Positions 2,455 to 23,132 of a stretch of 64,000 nucleotides of DNA are shown here, in pieces. A program made the translations under genes and the position numbers. Source of the stretch: a virus; the IMG/VR virus record IMGVR_UViG_3300050821_013910, positions 1-64,000 of that record; one strand, given 5' to 3'. Numbering within the stretch: position 1 is the first letter of the stretch; each line of letters opens with the position of its first letter. The notes under the pieces were generated by a model that did no database searches, had not been told where the DNA came from, and saw only the letters and a list, made by a program, of their open reading frames with translations.

Positions 2455-3332
2455 CAGCGAGATTCAAAGTAGCCATCCTCGGCTCGACCGGGATGCTGGG
2501 GTCGATGGTCCGGAGGTTCCTCTCCAGCCAGCCGGAGTACGACCTCAGGACCTACTCGCGCAGCGCCCTCGAAGCCGCGCTGATCAACGTCGCCGATCTC
2601 TTCCAGCTGATCTCCGGGCAGGACTACGTGATCAACTGTATCGGGGTGATCAAGCCGCGGATCGACGAGAAGAACCCAGCCTCGGTCCGCGACGCTATTC
2701 AGGTCAATGCACAATTCCCTTACACGCTGGCTCATGCAGCAGAGTGGGCGAAGGTGCGCGTCCTCCAGATCGCCACCGACTGCGTTTACTCGGGCAGGGA
2801 AGGGAACTACCGTGAAGACTCCCTGCACGACGCGACCGACATCTACGGCAAGACCAAGTCGCTGGGGGAAGTGGTCAGCCCCGCCGTCCGCCACCTGCGC
2901 TGCTCGATCATCGGACCTGAACCGGCTGGCCGACCCCGCGACTCCCTCCTCGAATGGTTCCTCGGTCAGCCGAAGGGAGCGCAGGTCAAGGGATTCACCA
3001 ACCACTACTGGAACGGGATCACTACCTTGGCCTTTGCCAAGTTGTGTCATGGGATCATGCGCGAGGGAATCGAACTCCCTCCCCTCCTCCATATCGTCCC
3101 CCAGAAAACAGCAAGCAAGGCAGGACTGTTGGACCAGTTCCGGTACTCCTTCTCCCGCATGGACATTACCGTGGACGAGGTTGCTGCGCCGACAGCCATT
3201 AACCGGACCCTCTCTACCTGCTGTCCCATCGCCAACATCCACCTTTGGAAGGCGGCAGGCTACCCCTACCAGCCTACGATCCAGCAGATGGTCCATGAAC
3301 TAGTTGCGTATGAGAAGGTGGTGGCCCGGTGA
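2451..3332 (+). CDS. NDP-4-keto-6-deoxysugar reductase (RmlD-like SDR)
   Basis: GSTGMLG, INCIG, IATDCVYSG, YGKTKSLGE motifs. Confidence 0.88.
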   Translation: MTARFKVAILGSTGMLGSMVRRFLSSQPEYDLRTYSRSALEAALINVADLFQLISGQDYVINCIGVIKPRIDEKNPASVRDAIQVNAQFPYTLAHAAEWAKVRVLQIATDCVYSGREGNYREDSLHDATDIYGKTKSLGEVVSPAVRHLRCSIIGPEPAGRPRDSLLEWFLGQPKGAQVKGFTNHYWNGITTLAFAKLCHGIMREGIELPPLLHIVPQKTASKAGLLDQFRYSFSRMDITVDEVAAPTAINRTLSTCCPIANIHLWKAAGYPYQPTIQQMVHELVAYEKVVAR

Positions 3333-4444
3333 AGGTCCTCACCCTCCTCGGCACCCGCCCGGAGATCATCCGGCTCAGCCGGGTGATCCCCCGGCTCGAC
3401 CAGGCCCTCGGCCGCGACAATCACATTCTGGTCAACACGGGGCAGAATCCCGACCCCACCCTCTCGGCCAACTTCTTCGGCGAACTCGGGATCAGACAGC
3501 CTGACTACAACCTCCTCGCCTCCGGCTCGTTCGGCCAGCAACTCGGCATCTCCTTCCCGGCCATCGAGCACACCCTCCAGACCGTCCGCCCTGACCGCCT
3601 TCTCGTCCTCGGCGACACCAACTCCTCCCTGGCCGCCATCGTCGCCGCCCGCCTCCTGATCCCCATCTATCACATGGAGGCCGGCAACCGCTCCTTCTCT
3701 CCCTCCAGCCCTGAGGAAGTCAATCGCCGCCTCGTGGACCACGCCTCCACCGTCCTCCTGCCCTACACTGACCGCTCACGCCAGAACCTCCTCGCCGAAG
3801 GCATCCACTCCTCGCGCATATTCGTGGCCGGGAACCCTATCCGCGAGGTGATCGAGCACTATCGCGACCAGTGGGAGACGGGAACGAGGGACGCGCTGGT
3901 ACGGCTGGGTCTGATCGCCAACCAGTTCTTCCTCGTGACCCTGCACCGGGCGGAGAACGTGGACGCGGAAGGCCGACTGCGCCGGTTCATTGAGGCGTTC
4001 AACCAACTCCAATACACCTACCATTATCCTGTCGTCGTCAGCACCCATCCGCACCTCCAGCAGCGAATCGACGCGCTCAACCTGCGTGGGAAGGACCTTA
4101 GCCCCTCCGTGCGCTTCCTCCCCCCCTTTCCCTTCTTCGACTTCCTCCGGCTCCAGATCTCTGCCTTCTGCGTCCTGTCCGACTCCGGGACCGTGCAGGA
4201 GGAGTGCTGTCTGCTCGGGCGGCCCTCGGTGACCTTGCGCGACTCGACGGAACGACCGGAGTGCCTGGAAGCGGGTGCGGGAGTGCTGTCCGGAGCTGAC
4301 CCCGCTGACATTCTCGCTGCGGTCCGGCTGGTCACCTCTCCTGACCGCCCTGCCTGGACCCCGCCTGCTGAGTACCTCCGCCTGAACGTGGCTGAGACCG
4401 TGGTCCGCATCCTCCTCAGCCACCGGGAAGGAGGCGTGGCATGA
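3329..4444 (+). CDS. non-hydrolysing UDP-N-acetylhexosamine 2-epimerase (WecB family, FnlC/WbjD/Cap5G-like)
   Basis: GTRPEIIRLSRVI, TGQN, GDTNS, HMEAGNRS, PEEVNR, TLHRAENVD, SDSGTVQEE, TERPE. Confidence 0.92.
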   Translation: MKVLTLLGTRPEIIRLSRVIPRLDQALGRDNHILVNTGQNPDPTLSANFFGELGIRQPDYNLLASGSFGQQLGISFPAIEHTLQTVRPDRLLVLGDTNSSLAAIVAARLLIPIYHMEAGNRSFSPSSPEEVNRRLVDHASTVLLPYTDRSRQNLLAEGIHSSRIFVAGNPIREVIEHYRDQWETGTRDALVRLGLIANQFFLVTLHRAENVDAEGRLRRFIEAFNQLQYTYHYPVVVSTHPHLQQRIDALNLRGKDLSPSVRFLPPFPFFDFLRLQISAFCVLSDSGTVQEECCLLGRPSVTLRDSTERPECLEAGAGVLSGADPADILAAVRLVTSPDRPAWTPPAEYLRLNVAETVVRILLSHREGGVA

Positions 4445-5409
4445 GAGTCCTCGTGGTCGGCGGCGCCGGGTACGTCGGAGGAGCGGTCACGGACCTTCTC
4501 CAGCAGCCCTTCTATCACCCTACCCCCCACTCCTTCCAGGTCTACGACTCCCTCCTCTACGAGGATCAGTTTCGCAAGCCCGTGCCCTTCTGCCGCGGCG
4601 ACGTCCGCGACCACTCGCGCCTCCTGCCCCTCCTCCACCAGTCCGACGTGGTCCTCTGGCTGGCCGCCCTGGTCGGCGACGGGGCCTGTGCGCTCGACCC
4701 CCCGGCCGCCGTCGAGGTCAACCAGGAGTCGGTCCGGTGGCTGGCGGAGAACTTCCCCGGCCGGATCATCTTCCTCTCGACCTGCTCGGTCTACGGGCAG
4801 GGGGAGGGAGAACTGACCGAGTCCTCGCCGACCAATCCCCTGTCCGTGTATGCGACGACCAAGCTGGCCGCCGAGCAGACTCTAGCCGACCATCCCAACT
4901 GCCTGATCTTCCGCCTCGGCACTCTGTTCGGACTCTCCGACCACTTCTCGCGCGTGCGGTTCGACCTCGTGGTGAACACTCTCACTCTCCGTGCGCAACG
5001 AGAAGGCAGGCTGACCGTGTTCGGCGGCGACCAGTTCCGTCCGCTCCTCCACGTCCGCGACGCCGCCGAGGCTATCGTCTCCGCCATTCCCACTCGCCAG
5101 ACTGGCATCTACAACCTGCGCTACCGCAACTACTCGATCTCGGAACTGGCTGATCTAGTGGCGGCTGAGTTCCCCGGTCTGGAGATCACCTCCACGCCCC
5201 AGCACTTCGAGGACCACCGGAACTACCGGGTCAGCTCCCTCGCCGCCGCACGGGACCTCCGCTTCTATCCGCGGCGGACCGTCAGCGAGGGCATCCGCGA
5301 GATCAAGCGCCTGCTGGACGAGGGCCGCCTTACCAACCCGGACCACGCGCGCCACGGGAACGAGCGGCACTTGGCCGCCCGGCGGATGGAGATGGAGGCG
5401 GCTAGATGA
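4441..5409 (+). CDS. NAD-dependent sugar epimerase/dehydratase (extended SDR)
   Basis: GGAGYVG, LAALVGD, STCSVYG, YATTK, RFDLVVN, RPLLHVRD. Confidence 0.9.
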   Translation: MRVLVVGGAGYVGGAVTDLLQQPFYHPTPHSFQVYDSLLYEDQFRKPVPFCRGDVRDHSRLLPLLHQSDVVLWLAALVGDGACALDPPAAVEVNQESVRWLAENFPGRIIFLSTCSVYGQGEGELTESSPTNPLSVYATTKLAAEQTLADHPNCLIFRLGTLFGLSDHFSRVRFDLVVNTLTLRAQREGRLTVFGGDQFRPLLHVRDAAEAIVSAIPTRQTGIYNLRYRNYSISELADLVAAEFPGLEITSTPQHFEDHRNYRVSSLAAARDLRFYPRRTVSEGIREIKRLLDEGRLTNPDHARHGNERHLAARRMEMEAAR

Positions 5410-19764: not shown

Positions 19765-21525
19765 ATGATCGCCAACCCCTCGCGCAAGAGCGCGAAGCAG
19801 GAGCACATCGATCCGAGGGCGAGGCATCTAGAGGACTGGATACAAGCGTCTGACTCCGCGCGCAACAAGGCATTGGGAGAGGGCTTCGCTAAGGCTGCGG
19901 AAGATTTGTATAACCTCAGCGACGCCATGACGCCGGGGCCTGTCTACAGGCCTTCCTTAAGCATCCCCATGCTGCAAAGAATAATGCTGGAGGAGTCCAA
20001 CCAAGTCAGCAGCCTGAGTCCGCGTATGTACGTCTTCCCGTCGGCGGGCTCCTCCGATCCTTCCTACAGCGGTGCCCAGCAAGCCGACCCTTCTCTCCCC
20101 TCTACTACTTCGCGTGACTTAGCGCGTGAAGTGTCCCTCCAGGCGCAGTGGCAGATCAGCAAGATGAACTTGCACCTGCTGATGGCCGGACTAACTGCCC
20201 GGTATTGTGGAGCTGGCTGGATAGTCTCGGGGTTTGATCCTGACTTGAGTCGCGCTCGCGGGGGCATGTGGGCTCGATCTATTGATCCCCGGCTGGTGTT
20301 TTTTGATCCTGGGACCGACTACACCTGGAACCCCTCCTACGCTGGCTGGCGGACTTGGATGAACCTCGAAGACGTCCGGCTGAAATGGCCCGAGACCTCC
20401 CGCGCCGTCCAGCCCAAGCACACCTCGGGCGGGTTCCAGCCTTTCTCGGGGGACTCAGGTTATGGTATCTCGCAGCCGCCCGGCCCGATGTCGTCGATGC
20501 CCTCGGCCTCGGGCCAGAACGCCAAGACTCAGGTAAGCGAATCGCGAGTCTTAGTAACCCACTGCTTCTGTCGCGACTACACCCGCGTTCAGGTCGAGAA
20601 GCCGGATGTGCCGCAGACCTCGCTCATTGATCCAGAGGTCCGGCTGAAGTATCCCAATGGCAGGTGGATCGTGGAGGCAGAAGGCGTTATCCTCCAGGAC
20701 GGCGACAATCCCTACCCACCGCGGCGCGATCTCATGGCCCCGACCTTTCCGCTGTTCCCGAACTGGGTCCTCCCTCCCCTCTTCGGACCCTGGGGCATCC
20801 CCGTCACCCGCATGACCGAAAACCTCCAGCGCCTGGCCCAGCGCTTCTACACCCAGATCTTCGAGAACGGCCTCCGGATGAACAACGGGGTATGGTTCAT
20901 CGATGAGAACACCGGGATCGACATCGACGGGTTCGGCGGGCTGCCTGGCGAAGTCTGCACGATCAAGCCGGGGTCGCGCATTCCCTCGACCGTCACCCCT
21001 AACGCGATGGGAGCCGGAGCGCTGCAGGGGGCCGAGAAACTCCTTGCCCTCCAGAACGACTGCCTCGGGTTCTCAGCCAGCCGCCAGGGCGAGCCGGGCG
21101 CGGGGAACGTCTCGACCGACCTTTTCGACAGCGCTGTCCTCCAGTCCTCCGGTCTCCTCCAACTGGCCGGCCGGTTCCTCGCCGAGACAGCCGAGTCGAT
21201 CGGCAGTTTCATGTTCGACACCATGTGCAAGTACCAGCAGAAATCCACTCTAGCCTACAAGGGACCGGAAGGAATTTCCCTAGCCAGTTGGAACGGTCAG
21301 GTTGATCCGATGACTTATGACCTTGCACTGGACGATGCCAGCGTGCGCCCGCTGAGTGAGGCAGTTATCAGAAAAATCACGCCTGACCTGATGAAATCTG
21401 GAGTTGTAAGTCCCGAGCGCGGACTCCGCACCCTCGGCTATCCCGATCCCGAAGGTGTTTCTCGCGAGCAGGAAACTTCGCAGGCCCTAGCTGCACTAGC
21501 CAAAGTCAGATCAGGCAGGAAATGA
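19765..21525 (+). CDS. portal protein
   Basis: 586 aa between terL and capsid genes; IDPRLVFFDP, YPNGRWIV..GVILQDGDNPY, PWGIP motifs typical of podovirus-like portals; possible true start ATC 19750. Confidence 0.8.
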   Translation: MIANPSRKSAKQEHIDPRARHLEDWIQASDSARNKALGEGFAKAAEDLYNLSDAMTPGPVYRPSLSIPMLQRIMLEESNQVSSLSPRMYVFPSAGSSDPSYSGAQQADPSLPSTTSRDLAREVSLQAQWQISKMNLHLLMAGLTARYCGAGWIVSGFDPDLSRARGGMWARSIDPRLVFFDPGTDYTWNPSYAGWRTWMNLEDVRLKWPETSRAVQPKHTSGGFQPFSGDSGYGISQPPGPMSSMPSASGQNAKTQVSESRVLVTHCFCRDYTRVQVEKPDVPQTSLIDPEVRLKYPNGRWIVEAEGVILQDGDNPYPPRRDLMAPTFPLFPNWVLPPLFGPWGIPVTRMTENLQRLAQRFYTQIFENGLRMNNGVWFIDENTGIDIDGFGGLPGEVCTIKPGSRIPSTVTPNAMGAGALQGAEKLLALQNDCLGFSASRQGEPGAGNVSTDLFDSAVLQSSGLLQLAGRFLAETAESIGSFMFDTMCKYQQKSTLAYKGPEGISLASWNGQVDPMTYDLALDDASVRPLSEAVIRKITPDLMKSGVVSPERGLRTLGYPDPEGVSREQETSQALAALAKVRSGRK

Positions 21526-21845
21526 GGAAGACAGCCATGCAGACTCCCGTCGCCGACCAACCCGCCCCCTCGCGACCCCGACCACACCCACACGTTCCTG
21601 TTCGGGAGGAGACAGAGATGGAGTCGGCCTCCGCCTTGGCTTCCCCCGCCCGCTCTGTCCCTCCTCATTCGTGGAAGGGACATTGGCTATCCGCGCGAGA
21701 ATTTGCCGGAGTAATGAACCGTAAGGAACAAACTATCTACAAATGGGCGCGGATTGGAACCTTGGCGGAATTCCAAATTTCTGTATGTAAGTTTCAAGGA
21801 CGTAAGCCGCACACGGCTAGGTTATGGATTCTTAATCCATTCTAG
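21522..21845 (+). CDS. HTH DNA-binding protein (excisionase/MerR-like)
   Basis: WLSAREFAGVMNRKEQTIYKWARIGTL. Confidence 0.65.
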   Translation: MRKTAMQTPVADQPAPSRPRPHPHVPVREETEMESASALASPARSVPPHSWKGHWLSAREFAGVMNRKEQTIYKWARIGTLAEFQISVCKFQGRKPHTARLWILNPF

Positions 21846-22113
21846 CCGTGCTTGGCATCCCTACTCAACCGATCCTGAACCCAACCGATCCTGACCCGAC
21901 CGGACCCAACCTGACAACTACCACTCCATGCCTCCAGCGAACCTTGTCAGACCAGAGACTGCCATAGCGGACCCGTTGGACCCCACACAACCACTCCATG
22001 CCTATGCAAGCCTGACCGGCCTTTCGGCCCGTTCCACGCCTTGTCGATCCTTGACTTGCCGTATCCAGTCTCGCACCAACTCTCCGCGTTTGTCCTTGTA
22101 CAACCACGCCAAG
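21846..22113 (-). ncRNA. 5-nt-periodic GGN-NN repeat array 2 (candidate guide RNA)
   Basis: minus strand runs GGCAA GTCAA GGATC GACAA GGCGT GGAAC; GGTCA GGCTT GCATA GGCAT GGAGT GGTTG; GGTTG GGTCC GGTCG GGTCA GGATC GGTTG; begins just after the stop of the RAMP-like gene. Confidence 0.7.
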
Positions 22114-22118
22114 GCGGA

Positions 22119-22757
22119 TTATTTTAACTCGACCACGTTGAACGATGTAACTTGGAAGCGTCCAAAACTAGGACGAAAATCACCTACTCCGACGATCCTT
22201 CCTGCGTAAGCAAGTGTCTCATGCAGCATTCGATGGTCGATGTACTCCGGCAGAAGAACTTGCAAACTTACTTTGCATTTCCAACCTGCAAGCATGGCCG
22301 GACGAACGCGCGTGATTCCATTGCGTTGAATAACTACACGCCGCTGGTCGAGGTAGTCAGGTTCCTTGACTCCGAGGGAGCAGAGTTCTCCGATGGTGCA
22401 AATTCCAGCTTTGAACAAGTCCATCGCTGACTTCCTTGGTGAGCGCGGGTCCTGTCGGAACTTTGACGCACCAATAATACTCATGCGGAAGTATTCAGAT
22501 GGAATCGCAAGAAGTCCCTTCACGTCGCGGTACAGATAGCTCTCGATGTTATCCGACTTCTTCGCCGCCGACCCCTTTTTGCTTGCCGCCTTCTCGGCAA
22601 CGGCCTCACAACTCCAGCGATGGAAGAGGATCGACGCCGTGCCTTCAATCTCAGCCTCGATCATGTAAGGGGACGATAGCTCGATGTCGTCCTTTGCATC
22701 GTTCGTGGTGTTACTCAGTGCTGTTGCCTTGGTTGCCATTTCTTTCTCTTGCTCCAT
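22119..22757 (-). CDS. stand-alone RAMP/Cas7-like protein
   Basis: N-terminal strand IEAEIEGTASILFH, LAIPSEYFRMSI, RVRPAM..W...L, C-terminal Gly loop AGRIVGVGDFRPSFGRFQV; alternative start 22739. Confidence 0.7.
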   Translation of the reverse strand: MEQEKEMATKATALSNTTNDAKDDIELSSPYMIEAEIEGTASILFHRWSCEAVAEKAASKKGSAAKKSDNIESYLYRDVKGLLAIPSEYFRMSIIGASKFRQDPRSPRKSAMDLFKAGICTIGELCSLGVKEPDYLDQRRVVIQRNGITRVRPAMLAGWKCKVSLQVLLPEYIDHRMLHETLAYAGRIVGVGDFRPSFGRFQVTSFNVVELK

Positions 22758-22770
22758 TCCTTGATTCGTA

Positions 22771-22835
22771 GTGCCTTGCCCAAACTAGCCACGTCTTGTC
22801 AAAACATGCCAATCCGTACCCGGACCCGCCGAGCC
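22771..22835 (-). ncRNA. 5-nt-periodic array 1 (13 in-phase pentamers)
   Basis: GGCTC GGCGG GTCCG GGTAC GGATT GGCAT GTTTT GACAA GACGT GGCTA GTTTG GGCAA GGCAC; all 13 start with G and 8 with GG. Confidence 0.75.
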
Positions 22836-22836
22836 A

Positions 22837-22974
22837 TTAGAGTTTGTACTTCCGTGCGAGTTCTCGAAGCGCCAGTTCAATGACCGCCGAACGCTTGAGT
22901 CCAAGCACCCTTGAGAGTTGGATCAGGAGGTTCAATCCAACTTGCCCTAGTCGGATACTTGTAGGAGAACTCAT
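22837..22974 (-). CDS. 45-aa ribbon-helix-helix (CopG/Arc-like) regulator (not in track)
   Basis: MSSPTSIRLGQVGLNLLIQLSRVLGLKRSAVIELALRELARKYKL. Confidence 0.75.
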   Translation of the reverse strand: MSSPTSIRLGQVGLNLLIQLSRVLGLKRSAVIELALRELARKYKL

Positions 22975-22980
22975 ACTGGA

Positions 22981-23009
22981 AATGTAGTGAATATGCGCTA
23001 CAAAGTCAA
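22981..23009 (-). promoter_or_regulatory. sigma70-type promoter with overlapping palindromic operator; leaderless transcript
   Basis: TTGACT-17 nt-TACATT, ATG 6 nt downstream; TGTAGCG-N6-CACTACA inverted repeat over spacer and -10. Confidence 0.7.
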
Positions 23010-23132
23010 GAGTTTTTTATACAGTGTTATCCCACCCCTGCGCCCTTCTCCCTCCCCTCGCCGTACCATTGTCCTCAATCACCCCCGCCCTTCCAGCACC
23101 TCCGGTCGTGCGCGTGTGAAAGGAGAATCATC

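What the first reader, a model, noticed from the sequence alone, without database searches (positions are those of the whole stretch)
21846..22113. Internal architecture of the downstream pentamer array suggests several processed guides
Seen on the minus strand: in-phase pentamer blocks are broken by phase shifts and by a GGCC-GAAA-GGCC GNRA hairpin (22018-22029). A 14-mer ACCACTCCATGCCT recurs at 21920 and 21990, exactly 70 nt (14 pentamers) apart. CAACCGATCCTGA recurs at 21866 and 21882. The array ends are complementary (CTTGGCGT with ATGCCAAG). Inference: a multi-guide precursor with hairpin boundaries that diversifies by in-register duplication or recombination rather than spacer acquisition.
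Basis: partly seen in the sequence, partly recalled or inferred. Interest (0 to 1): 0.7.

Follow-up and report, generated by a model that had tools for sequence, protein, structure and literature searches.

The report
Phage VIPR guide-RNA array (vrRNAs)
The five-letter repeat tract is the guide-RNA array of a VIPR system, a CRISPR-related RNA-guided DNA silencer of phages first described in 2026 preprints, so this is a genuine but already explained kind of element in a new soil phage.

Summary
The tract 22113-21860 (minus strand) consists of GGY-NN pentamers. It lies directly after a 206/212-aa gene (22757-22119), and a second tract (22838-22774) precedes that gene. The protein has a Cas7/Csm3-type RAMP fold. 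Its family profile hits the solved "SUSP1 Vipr protein" (PDB 36pp) at E 3.7e-16, and the residues that hold G, G and Y are conserved. In 79 of 80 related viral loci the gene is flanked by such arrays, and 128 of 132 arrays are on the sense strand. The locus is therefore a VIPR system (bioRxiv 10.64898/2026.04.26.720920 and .720927): one Vipr protomer binds each repeat and the NN bases read dsDNA with a one-base skip. The GNRA hairpin is a conserved boundary motif that covaries across relatives. It closes a first guide of 17 units; the remainder is about 30 units in five phase blocks with two small duplications. I found no target, and I have no RNA evidence for processing. This scan has already noted VIPR loci in at least 320 other genomes. 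Verdict: a new member of a known kind, of modest interest.

The parts
22981..23009 (-). Sigma-70-like promoter (TTGACT, 17-nt spacer, TACATT) heading the operon
   Evidence: Consensus scan, 9 of 12 matches. This is a consensus match only; function is inferred.
22837..22974 (-). 45-aa ribbon-helix-helix-like ORF, a possible regulator or small accessory DNA-binding protein
   Evidence: ORF list. Weak Pfam RHH_3 hit, E 0.037, below the curated cut-off. A homologous small ORF lies upstream of vipr in 6 close relatives.
22774..22838 (-). Upstream vrRNA tract U1: 13 in-phase YNNGG units in the 5' leader of vipr
   Evidence: Chain segmentation, GGY caller and the period-5 peak at 22741-22870.
22119..22757 (-). 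vipr gene: a minimal Cas7-like RAMP. The ORF from 22757 gives 212 aa; the likely true start is the ATG at 22739, giving 206 aa as in the database homologs.
   Evidence: AF2 model pLDDT 83. Foldseek top hits are type VII Cas7 and Csm3. VIA Z 11.0 to Csm3 6ae2_B. The family profile hits PDB 36pp_D 'SUSP1 Vipr protein' at E 3.7e-16. Database homologs are 206 aa.
22029..22113 (-). Downstream vrRNA D1: 17 pentamer units in one register, degenerate (strong and weak units alternate)
   Evidence: Its 3' part shares 25 of 27 nt with the last unit of relative L003.
22016..22031 (-). Tail or boundary motif CG-GGCC-GAAA-GGCC-GG (hairpin 22029-22018)
   Evidence: Present in both the MFE and the centroid fold. 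Conserved in L003, L011 and L016, with compensatory changes. Of 25 context matches in relatives, 24 have Watson-Crick inner pairs, with at least 8 different stems.
21859..22020 (-). Remaining downstream tract: blocks D2 (22020-21981, 8 units), D3 (21976-21937, 8), D4 (21935-21921, 3), D5 (21914-21880, 7) and D6 (21878-21859, 4), separated by breaks of 4, 1, 6 and 1 nt. It contains the 14-mer repeat and the 16-nt tandem duplication.
21812..21850 (-). Terminal 39-nt nested hairpin (CACGGCTAG...CTAGCCGTG) closing the array. It overlaps the 3' end of the convergent + strand ORF 21522-21845.
   Evidence: Sequence and a strong stem in both MFE and centroid. No T-run follows it, so a terminator role is inferred only. 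Relatives L003, L011 and L016 end their arrays with canonical intrinsic terminators.

Best explanation
The region 22113-21860 (minus strand) is the downstream vrRNA array of a VIPR (Viral Interference Programmable Repeat) system carried by a 74.6-kb soil phage.

The operon on the minus strand reads: promoter, small RHH ORF, one upstream vrRNA tract, vipr, downstream array, terminal hairpin.

The mechanism is taken by homology from the SUSP1 system. Vipr protomers polymerise along the RNA, one per GGYNN unit. They sequester G, G and Y in protein pockets and expose the two N bases. The string of NN dinucleotides pairs with double-stranded DNA that carries the matching dinucleotides separated by one skipped base (usually the codon wobble). 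The bound filament then represses transcription of a competing phage or other mobile element.

Within this array, the first 17 units plus the conserved GNRA hairpin form one vrRNA of about 100 nt. The remaining ~30 units, in five phase blocks, give one to three further guides closed by the terminal hairpin.

Shown here:
- The protein is a Vipr homolog with the GGY-binding residues.
- The repeat code is G G Y N N.
- The arrays sit on the sense strand in relatives.
- The hairpin covaries.
- There is no self-target.

Inferred only: transcription, processing, RNP assembly, and the identity of the targets in this phage.
For: Protein:
- Cas7/Csm3 fold.
- The profile of 36 family members hits PDB 36pp_D 'SUSP1 Vipr protein' at E 3.7e-16 over residues 5-189.
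- In that alignment, the SUSP1 residues that the structure paper gives as contacting GGY (H17, R138, D177, W178, R179) align with H46, R152, D193, F194 and R195 of the window protein. These are invariant or nearly so in the family.

RNA code:
- In-phase pentamers of 80 related loci give G 0.90, G 0.79, Y 0.88, N, N.
- 79 of 80 loci have a period-5 array within 600 nt of the gene, and 128 of 132 arrays are G-rich on the sense strand.
- No other flanking protein family is conserved.

Boundary hairpin.

Other points:
- Arrays are hypervariable while the CDS is 76% identical to L003.
- There is no self-targeting under the skip rule, as the authors report for their systems.
- The published description matches: GGY/NN vrRNAs, one upstream and an array downstream, a structured tail, and frequent internal degeneracy.
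Against: - There is no RNA evidence for the array. The only metatranscriptome contig covers vipr 22530-22760.
- No target was found in the phage's own genome, in about 1 Mb of fetched loci, in IMG/VR, in JGI metagenomes or in GTDB genomes, using exact 8- or 10-unit sub-patterns.
- The first guide is degenerate: only about half of its units carry a full GG.
- The second half has four phase breaks, which would interrupt a one-protomer-per-unit filament.
- No vap-type accessory gene follows vipr here.
- The terminal hairpin lacks a T-run.
Confidence: 0.88

Rival explanations
1. The array is a decaying or non-guiding derivative. It is transcribed with vipr, but it acts as a sponge, decoy or autoregulatory platform that titrates Vipr, or it is simply eroding, rather than providing working guides.
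For: D1 has low GGY conformity and is missed by a 75% conformity caller. The second half has four phase breaks and internal duplications. No target was found. Decoy-directing solo vrRNAs exist in satellites according to the October 2026 preprint.
Against: The authors note frequent internal degeneracy in functional loci. The boundary hairpin is intact and conserved. My target search used only exact sub-patterns and could miss 80-90% matches. The vipr gene is intact with all key residues.
Confidence: 0.08
2. The pentamers are DNA-level binding sites (iteron- or operator-like arrays) for a DNA-binding protein, not RNA.
For: The 5/10-bp period is close to the DNA helical repeat. GenBank annotates the DSL-LC04 homolog as an HTH regulator.
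Against: Strand polarity relative to the gene is almost absolute (128 of 132). In relatives the arrays lie between promoter and terminator. The protein has a RAMP RNA-binding fold, not an HTH. The homolog was solved and shown to bind such RNA.
Confidence: 0.02
3. The tract encodes the 80-aa ORF 21865-22107 (minus strand).
For: An open frame of 80 codons with a GTG start exists.
Against: The periodicity is 5, not 3: period-3 power is 0.6-1.2 against period-5 power of 2.6-4.0. The ORF has no Pfam or PHROG hit. Arrays of close relatives are not alignable outside 26-27-nt islands, although the neighbouring CDS is 76% identical. Equally long stop-free stretches occur on both strands of other arrays because the composition is poor in stop codons.
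Confidence: 0.01
4. It is a G-quadruplex-forming 3' UTR (GG-N3 repeats giving stacked two-tetrad G4s) that stabilises or regulates the mRNA independently of the protein.
For: GG every 5 nt fits a G2N3 quadruplex pattern.
Against: A G4 does not explain 88% pyrimidine at position 3, whereas the Vipr pyrimidine pocket does. A G4 also does not explain the obligatory linkage to one protein family.
Confidence: 0.01

Closest known systems
VIPR systems; reference type II of Escherichia phage SUSP1 and a Pseudomonas fulva prophage (bioRxiv 10.64898/2026.04.26.720920; structures 10.64898/2026.04.26.720927, PDB 36pp; biology 10.64898/2026.10.15.759431)
   Same: A ~20-kDa minimal RAMP homologous in sequence (E 3.7e-16) with conserved GGY-contact residues. 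GGY/NN pentamer tracts lie on the sense strand, one upstream and an array downstream. A structured element closes a guide. There are no cas genes or CRISPR repeats. The element is phage-borne and does not target itself.
   Different: The protein is distant from SUSP1: tblastn detects only the C-terminal 73 residues, at 36% identity. No vap-like gene follows vipr; instead a 45-aa RHH-like ORF lies upstream. The boundary element is a 12-16-nt GNRA, UUCG or tri-loop hairpin in the context GGWHCG...GGY, rather than a ~40-nt tail with a pseudoknot. The first guide has 17 units and is degenerate. I could not assign one of the seven types, because the type table is not in the text held.
Class 1 CRISPR effector backbones (Csm3/Cmr4 of type III, Cas7 of type VII, Csf2 of type IV)
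   Same: RRM core, glycine-rich loop and thumb. The proteins form a helical filament on RNA with periodic base displacement. VIA Z 9-11.
   Different: Each subunit covers 5 nt, with 3 displaced and 2 read, instead of 6 nt with 1 displaced and 5 read. There is no repeat-spacer array, no Cas5, Cas6, Cas10 or Cas11 partner, and no adaptation genes. The guide is a degenerate tandem repeat.
Type IV-B Csf complex (PDB 7jhy; iScience 2021, PMC7937560)
   Same: A Cas7-like filament without a CRISPR array, carried on mobile elements (VIA Z 9.3).
   Different: Type IV-B assembles on heterogeneous non-CRISPR RNA and needs Cas11. Here a dedicated, sequence-coded RNA is encoded next to the gene.
TRAP-trp leader RNA of Bacillus (own knowledge; not tested here)
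   Same: An oligomeric protein reads a triplet repeated with 2-nt spacers, so the period is about 5 nt.
   Different: The fold is unrelated. TRAP is a closed ring, not a filament, and its spacers carry no programmable information.

Membership tests
VIPR | Vipr protein: a minimal RAMP (RRM core, G-loop, thumb) outside a CRISPR-cas context | tested here: met
   AF2 model pLDDT 83. Foldseek top hits are type VII Cas7 and Csm3. VIA Z 11.0 to Csm3 6ae2_B. The G-loop reads GVGDFRPSFGRF. There are no CRISPR-like repeats in the window and no cas-like neighbour is conserved.
VIPR | Sequence homology to an experimentally characterised Vipr | tested here: met
   The profile of alignment A2 hits PDB 36pp_D 'SUSP1 Vipr protein' at E 3.7e-16, profile positions 31-202 against chain residues 5-189.
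VIPR | Residues that recognise G1, G2 and Y3 (SUSP1 H17, R138, D177, W178, R179) | tested here: met
   These align to H46, R152, D193, F194 (aromatic, in place of W) and R195 (alignment read). All are invariant in A1.
VIPR | vrRNA: tandem YNNGG (GGY/NN) units, at least 4, flanking vipr on its strand | tested here: met
   U1 has 13 units, D1 has 17, and D2-D6 have 8, 8, 3, 7 and 4. The family-wide matrix is G .90, G .79, Y .88, N, N. Of 132 arrays, 128 are on the sense strand.
VIPR | A repeat tract of 9-16 units followed by a conserved structured 3' tail | tested here: inconclusive
   D1 (17 units) is followed by a conserved, covarying hairpin. This hairpin is much shorter than the SUSP1 tail, and no pseudoknot was sought. 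The later blocks have no such hairpin except the terminal 39-nt stem.
VIPR | An accessory vap gene next to vipr (typical, not universal) | tested here: inconclusive
   No conserved second gene was found in 80 loci, apart from a small RHH-like ORF in 6 close relatives. DSL-LC04 and LESphi2 homologs do have downstream genes.
VIPR | vrRNAs are expressed, processed to about 100 nt, and co-purify with Vipr | not testable with these tools
   One soil metatranscriptome contig covers only vipr 22530-22760. Contigs cannot show RNA ends.
VIPR | NN dinucleotides match a natural dsDNA target under the 1-nt skip rule (at least 80% NN match) | tested here: inconclusive
   No hit rose above the shuffled-guide null in the phage's own genome. 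Exact 8- or 10-unit sub-patterns gave none, or only chance-level extensions, in IMG/VR, metagenomes and GTDB. A mismatch-tolerant whole-database search was not possible.
VIPR | No self-targeting | tested here: met
   The best skip-1 scores are 17/26, 21/34 and 13/16, which are within the shuffled-guide range. Only the skip-3 'hits' are perfect, and those are the arrays themselves.
CRISPR-Cas class 1 | A repeat-spacer array with 25-40-nt direct repeats and unique spacers | tested here: not met
   TRF finds no such array in the window. The tract is a 5-nt lattice.
Hammerhead-interspersed VIPR arrays (reported for types I and V) | A hammerhead ribozyme between vrRNAs | tested here: not met
   No Rfam family was found in the window at the gathering threshold or at E<=1 over 21700-23050, nor in 20 related loci. 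The GGCC-GAAA-GGCC stem lacks flanking CUGAUGA and GAAAC cores.

The most novel reading that the evidence does not exclude
This clade could be a VIPR variant whose architecture is not described in the text available to me. Its members lack vap, some carry an RHH-like ORF, and their long arrays (up to about 770 nt, with stretches of 40+ contiguous units in relatives) are punctuated by minimal GNRA or UUCG hairpins in a fixed GGWHCG...GGY context. Guide ends would then be set by these tiny hairpins. The phase-broken, duplicated second half of this array would record how new guides arise: by slippage or duplication followed by NN drift, rather than by acquisition.
Probability: 0.2. Interest if true: 0.5.

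Novelty: new member of a known kind. Interest (0 to 1): 0.3.

Why it matters
VIPR is a newly recognised, very compact RNA-guided DNA-binding system that has been proposed as an ancestor of the CRISPR RAMPs. Each additional well-delimited locus adds to the catalogue of guide architectures.

This locus contributes three things:
- a soil-phage example from a large uncharacterised branch (5,815 database homologs, none with a Pfam family);
- a simple boundary hairpin supported by covariation, which could help automatic vrRNA calling;
- an example of a degenerate, phase-broken array that bears on how guides evolve.

It does not change the known mechanism.

Tried and rejected
- **Rfam.** There is no family in the window (gathering threshold), in 21700-23050 at E<=1, or in 20 related loci. 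The hairpin is therefore not a known ribozyme.
- **BLAST against phages.** blastn of the locus against 50,697 phage records gave no match.
- **The search for related loci with alignment A2.** It failed because no stretch was conserved enough. Alignment A1 worked.
- **GG-run detector.** A simple 6-of-8 detector was too noisy in this GC-rich genome, so I replaced it with spectral and chain methods.
[quoted passage not shown] - All ~1 Mb of fetched loci, including 90 vipr loci, gave nothing.
  - IMG/VR exact patterns of D1 units 1-10 and 8-17 gave 0 hits.
  - D1 units 5-12, U1 units 3-10 and D1 units 10-17 gave 16, 7 and 34 hits. Their extensions match at chance level; the best is 24/34.
  - Two metagenome scans gave 0 hits.
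  - GTDB scans gave 0 and 2 hits.
  - The Mycobacteriales hit reads LVCKHADGEWT in an unannotated frame. It lies antisense to a 401-aa membrane-protein ORF, with the skipped base off the wobble position, so it is chance.
- **RNA runs.** One soil metatranscriptome contig (231 nt, 1 mismatch) covers only the 5' part of vipr. This says nothing about the array.
- **Whole 70-nt duplication.** Rejected, since identity at lag 70 is only 0.29.
- **Pairing of the array ends.** It is not in the centroid fold.
- **Supplementary tables.** The tables of the VIPR preprint are not held as text, so I could not check the accession list or assign a type.

Full report
**Observation.** Read on the minus strand, 22113-21846 is a G-rich tract lying between two convergent genes: the 212-aa ORF 22757-22119 (minus) and the 107-aa ORF 21522-21845 (plus).

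- Identity at lags 5 and 10 is 0.37 and 0.41, against 0.18-0.31 at other lags.
- In a sliding-window spectrum of the whole window, the strongest period-5 signals are this tract and a second one at 22741-22870, directly upstream of the same gene. Period-3 power is low in both.
- The 14-mer repeat is unlikely by chance when the scaffold is held fixed (P about 0.0035).
- The two copies share nothing further at the 70-nt lag.
- The 16-nt tandem duplication shifts the phase by one.
- Pairing of the array ends is not in the centroid fold. The GNRA hairpin and a terminal 39-nt stem (21850-21812) are.

**The neighbouring protein.**

- The 212-aa product has no Pfam family and only an uncharacterised PHROG.
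- It belongs to a very large viral family: 5,815 homologs in one search, and 1,115 clusters at 50% identity in another.
- An AlphaFold model (pLDDT 83) matches Cas7-type RAMPs. Foldseek's best hits are type VII Cas7 and Csm3. An aligner independent of Foldseek gives Z 11.0 to Csm3, 10.9 to Cmr4 and 9.3 to type IV Csf2.
- A profile of 36 diverse family members hits the PDB chain 36pp_D, named 'SUSP1 Vipr protein', at E 3.7e-16 over almost its whole length.

**The association is general.** I fetched 80 further viral loci encoding homologs.

- In 79 of them a period-5 array lies within 600 nt of the gene. The exception is a 924-nt fragment.
- Arrays lie upstream in 53 loci, downstream in 62 and on both sides in 36.
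- 128 of 132 arrays are G-rich on the gene's sense strand.
- In-phase pentamers give G 0.90, G 0.79, pyrimidine 0.88, N, N.
- No other protein family is conserved next to the gene, apart from a small RHH-like ORF in six close relatives and in the window.
- Even the 26%-identical homolog in Pseudomonas phage LESphi2 has such arrays.

**What it is.** A literature search on these features found three 2026 preprints describing VIPR systems.

- Vipr is a minimal RAMP of about 20 kDa.
- vrRNAs consist of 9-16 YNNGG repeats followed by a structured 3' tail. In phage SUSP1, one vrRNA is encoded upstream of the protein genes and three in an array downstream.
- One protomer binds each repeat. It holds G1, G2 and Y3 through H17, R138, D177, W178 and R179, and presents the NN bases.
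- The NN bases pair with double-stranded DNA with one base skipped between dinucleotides.
- The outcome is transcriptional silencing of rival phages and satellites.
- In the HMM alignment, those five residues align with H46, R152, D193, F194 and R195 of the window protein. All are invariant in its close family.

The finding is therefore the downstream vrRNA array of a VIPR locus.

**Anatomy of this locus (minus strand).**

- A sigma-70-like promoter lies at 23009-22981.
- A 45-aa RHH-like ORF follows at 22974-22837 (weak Pfam hit).
- U1 is 13 units at 22838-22774.
- vipr follows. The likely start is 22739, because database homologs are 206 aa.
- D1 is 17 units in a single register at 22113-22029. 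It is degenerate, with strong and weak units alternating, which explains the strong lag-10 signal.
- The motif CG-GGCC-GAAA-GGCC-GG comes next.
- Five blocks of 8, 8, 3, 7 and 4 units follow, separated by breaks of 4, 1, 6 and 1 nt.
- The terminal stem closes the array.

**The hairpin.**

- The same context, GGWHCG-[GG...CC]-GGY, recurs 70-550 nt downstream of vipr in about 16 related loci.
- When I searched for that context without demanding complementarity, 24 of 25 instances had Watson-Crick inner pairs. At least eight different stems occur, and the loops are mostly GNRA or UUCG.
- The distance from the last GG before the hairpin to the first GG after it is 13, 14 or 17 nt. This is never a multiple of five, so the lattice is broken there.
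- That fits a boundary between separate vrRNAs rather than a looped-out insertion in one filament.
- I read the hairpin as this clade's counterpart of the vrRNA tail. This is an inference.
- In L003, L011 and L016 the last unit ends at a canonical intrinsic terminator on the sense strand. This supports transcription of the arrays together with the gene.

**Evolution.**

- Against the closest relative (L003, 90% protein identity) the CDS is 76% identical in DNA.
- The arrays share only two islands of 26-27 nt: the hairpin, and the 3' end of D1.
- The upstream tract has no detectable similarity.
- Guides thus turn over much faster than the protein, as reported for VIPR.
- Two small internal duplications exist, but I cannot tell how new guides arise.

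**Rivals.**

- The 80-aa ORF is a by-product of composition. It has no codon periodicity, no family and no conservation, and other arrays have equally long open stretches on both strands.
- DNA-level iterons are made unlikely by the strand polarity and by the RAMP fold.
- A pure G-quadruplex reading does not explain the pyrimidine at position 3.
- A decayed or decoy array cannot be excluded (about 8%).

**Targets and expression.** Decoding NN with the published rule gave nothing.

- There is no match above shuffled-guide nulls in the phage's own 74.6-kb genome.
- There is nothing in about 1 Mb of fetched loci.
- Exact sub-patterns gave only chance-level hits in IMG/VR, JGI metagenomes and GTDB genomes.
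- These scans need exact matches over 8-10 units, so an 80-90% target could have been missed.
- A soil metatranscriptome holds a contig of the 5' part of vipr only, so processing is untested here.

**Verdict.** The ideas about end-pairing, in-register duplication and the mode of diversification are not supported or not tested. This is a new member of a known kind. The scan has already noted VIPR loci in at least 320 other genomes.

Noticed in passing
L008 2790-2910 (same contig as L041); also L019 1981-2140 and L020 1341-1435: A few upstream arrays are on the opposite strand (CCNNN when read with the gene), which suggests a divergently transcribed vrRNA. This applies to 4 of the 132 arrays near vipr.
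   Followed up: partly
L008 3745-3800 and 3900-3950: Two copies of a ~45-nt structured insert (TTATGAGGCA...stem...TTACYTGATAAGG) interrupt the array. There is no Rfam match. It may be a different, larger boundary or processing element in that clade.
   Followed up: partly
L012 113-430 and 1190-1800: Very long, nearly perfect arrays (about 320 nt upstream and about 600 nt downstream) are punctuated by an AT-rich element (GGATTTTAGCAATTAT...). Stretches of 40 or more contiguous units, also seen in L016, exceed the published 9-16 units per vrRNA.
   Followed up: no
L003 3669-3685, L011 about 3810-3826, L016 about 2455-2470: A recurrent motif GG(ACT)GG(C/T)AATCCACGG occurs inside arrays of close relatives. 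It is absent from the window array and its role is unknown.
   Followed up: no
L002 (Pseudomonas phage LESphi2, OQ594955) 2380-2730 and 2830-3414: The prophage of P. aeruginosa LESB58 carries a vipr homolog (P21_9, annotated hypothetical). It has three upstream GGY-NN blocks and two downstream genes (163 and 502 aa), between the cI/sigma-factor region and the early genes.
   Followed up: partly
L001 (Phage DSL-LC04, OR003939) 4013-4630: GenBank names the Vipr homolog 'helix-turn-helix transcriptional regulator'. The fold and the PDB hit indicate a RAMP, so that name is probably wrong. Its array lies upstream (3680-3900).
   Followed up: partly
window 22739 versus 22757: The ORF list starts vipr at 22757 (212 aa), but the identical database protein and nearly all homologs are 206 aa. 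The real start is therefore probably the ATG at 22739, and the last two U1-phase pentamers overlap the ribosome-binding region.
   Followed up: partly
window 21812-21850: A nested 39-nt hairpin lies between the convergent vipr operon and the portal-side ORF 21522-21845, overlapping that ORF's last codons. No T-run follows on the array (minus) strand. It may be a bidirectional terminator.
   Followed up: no
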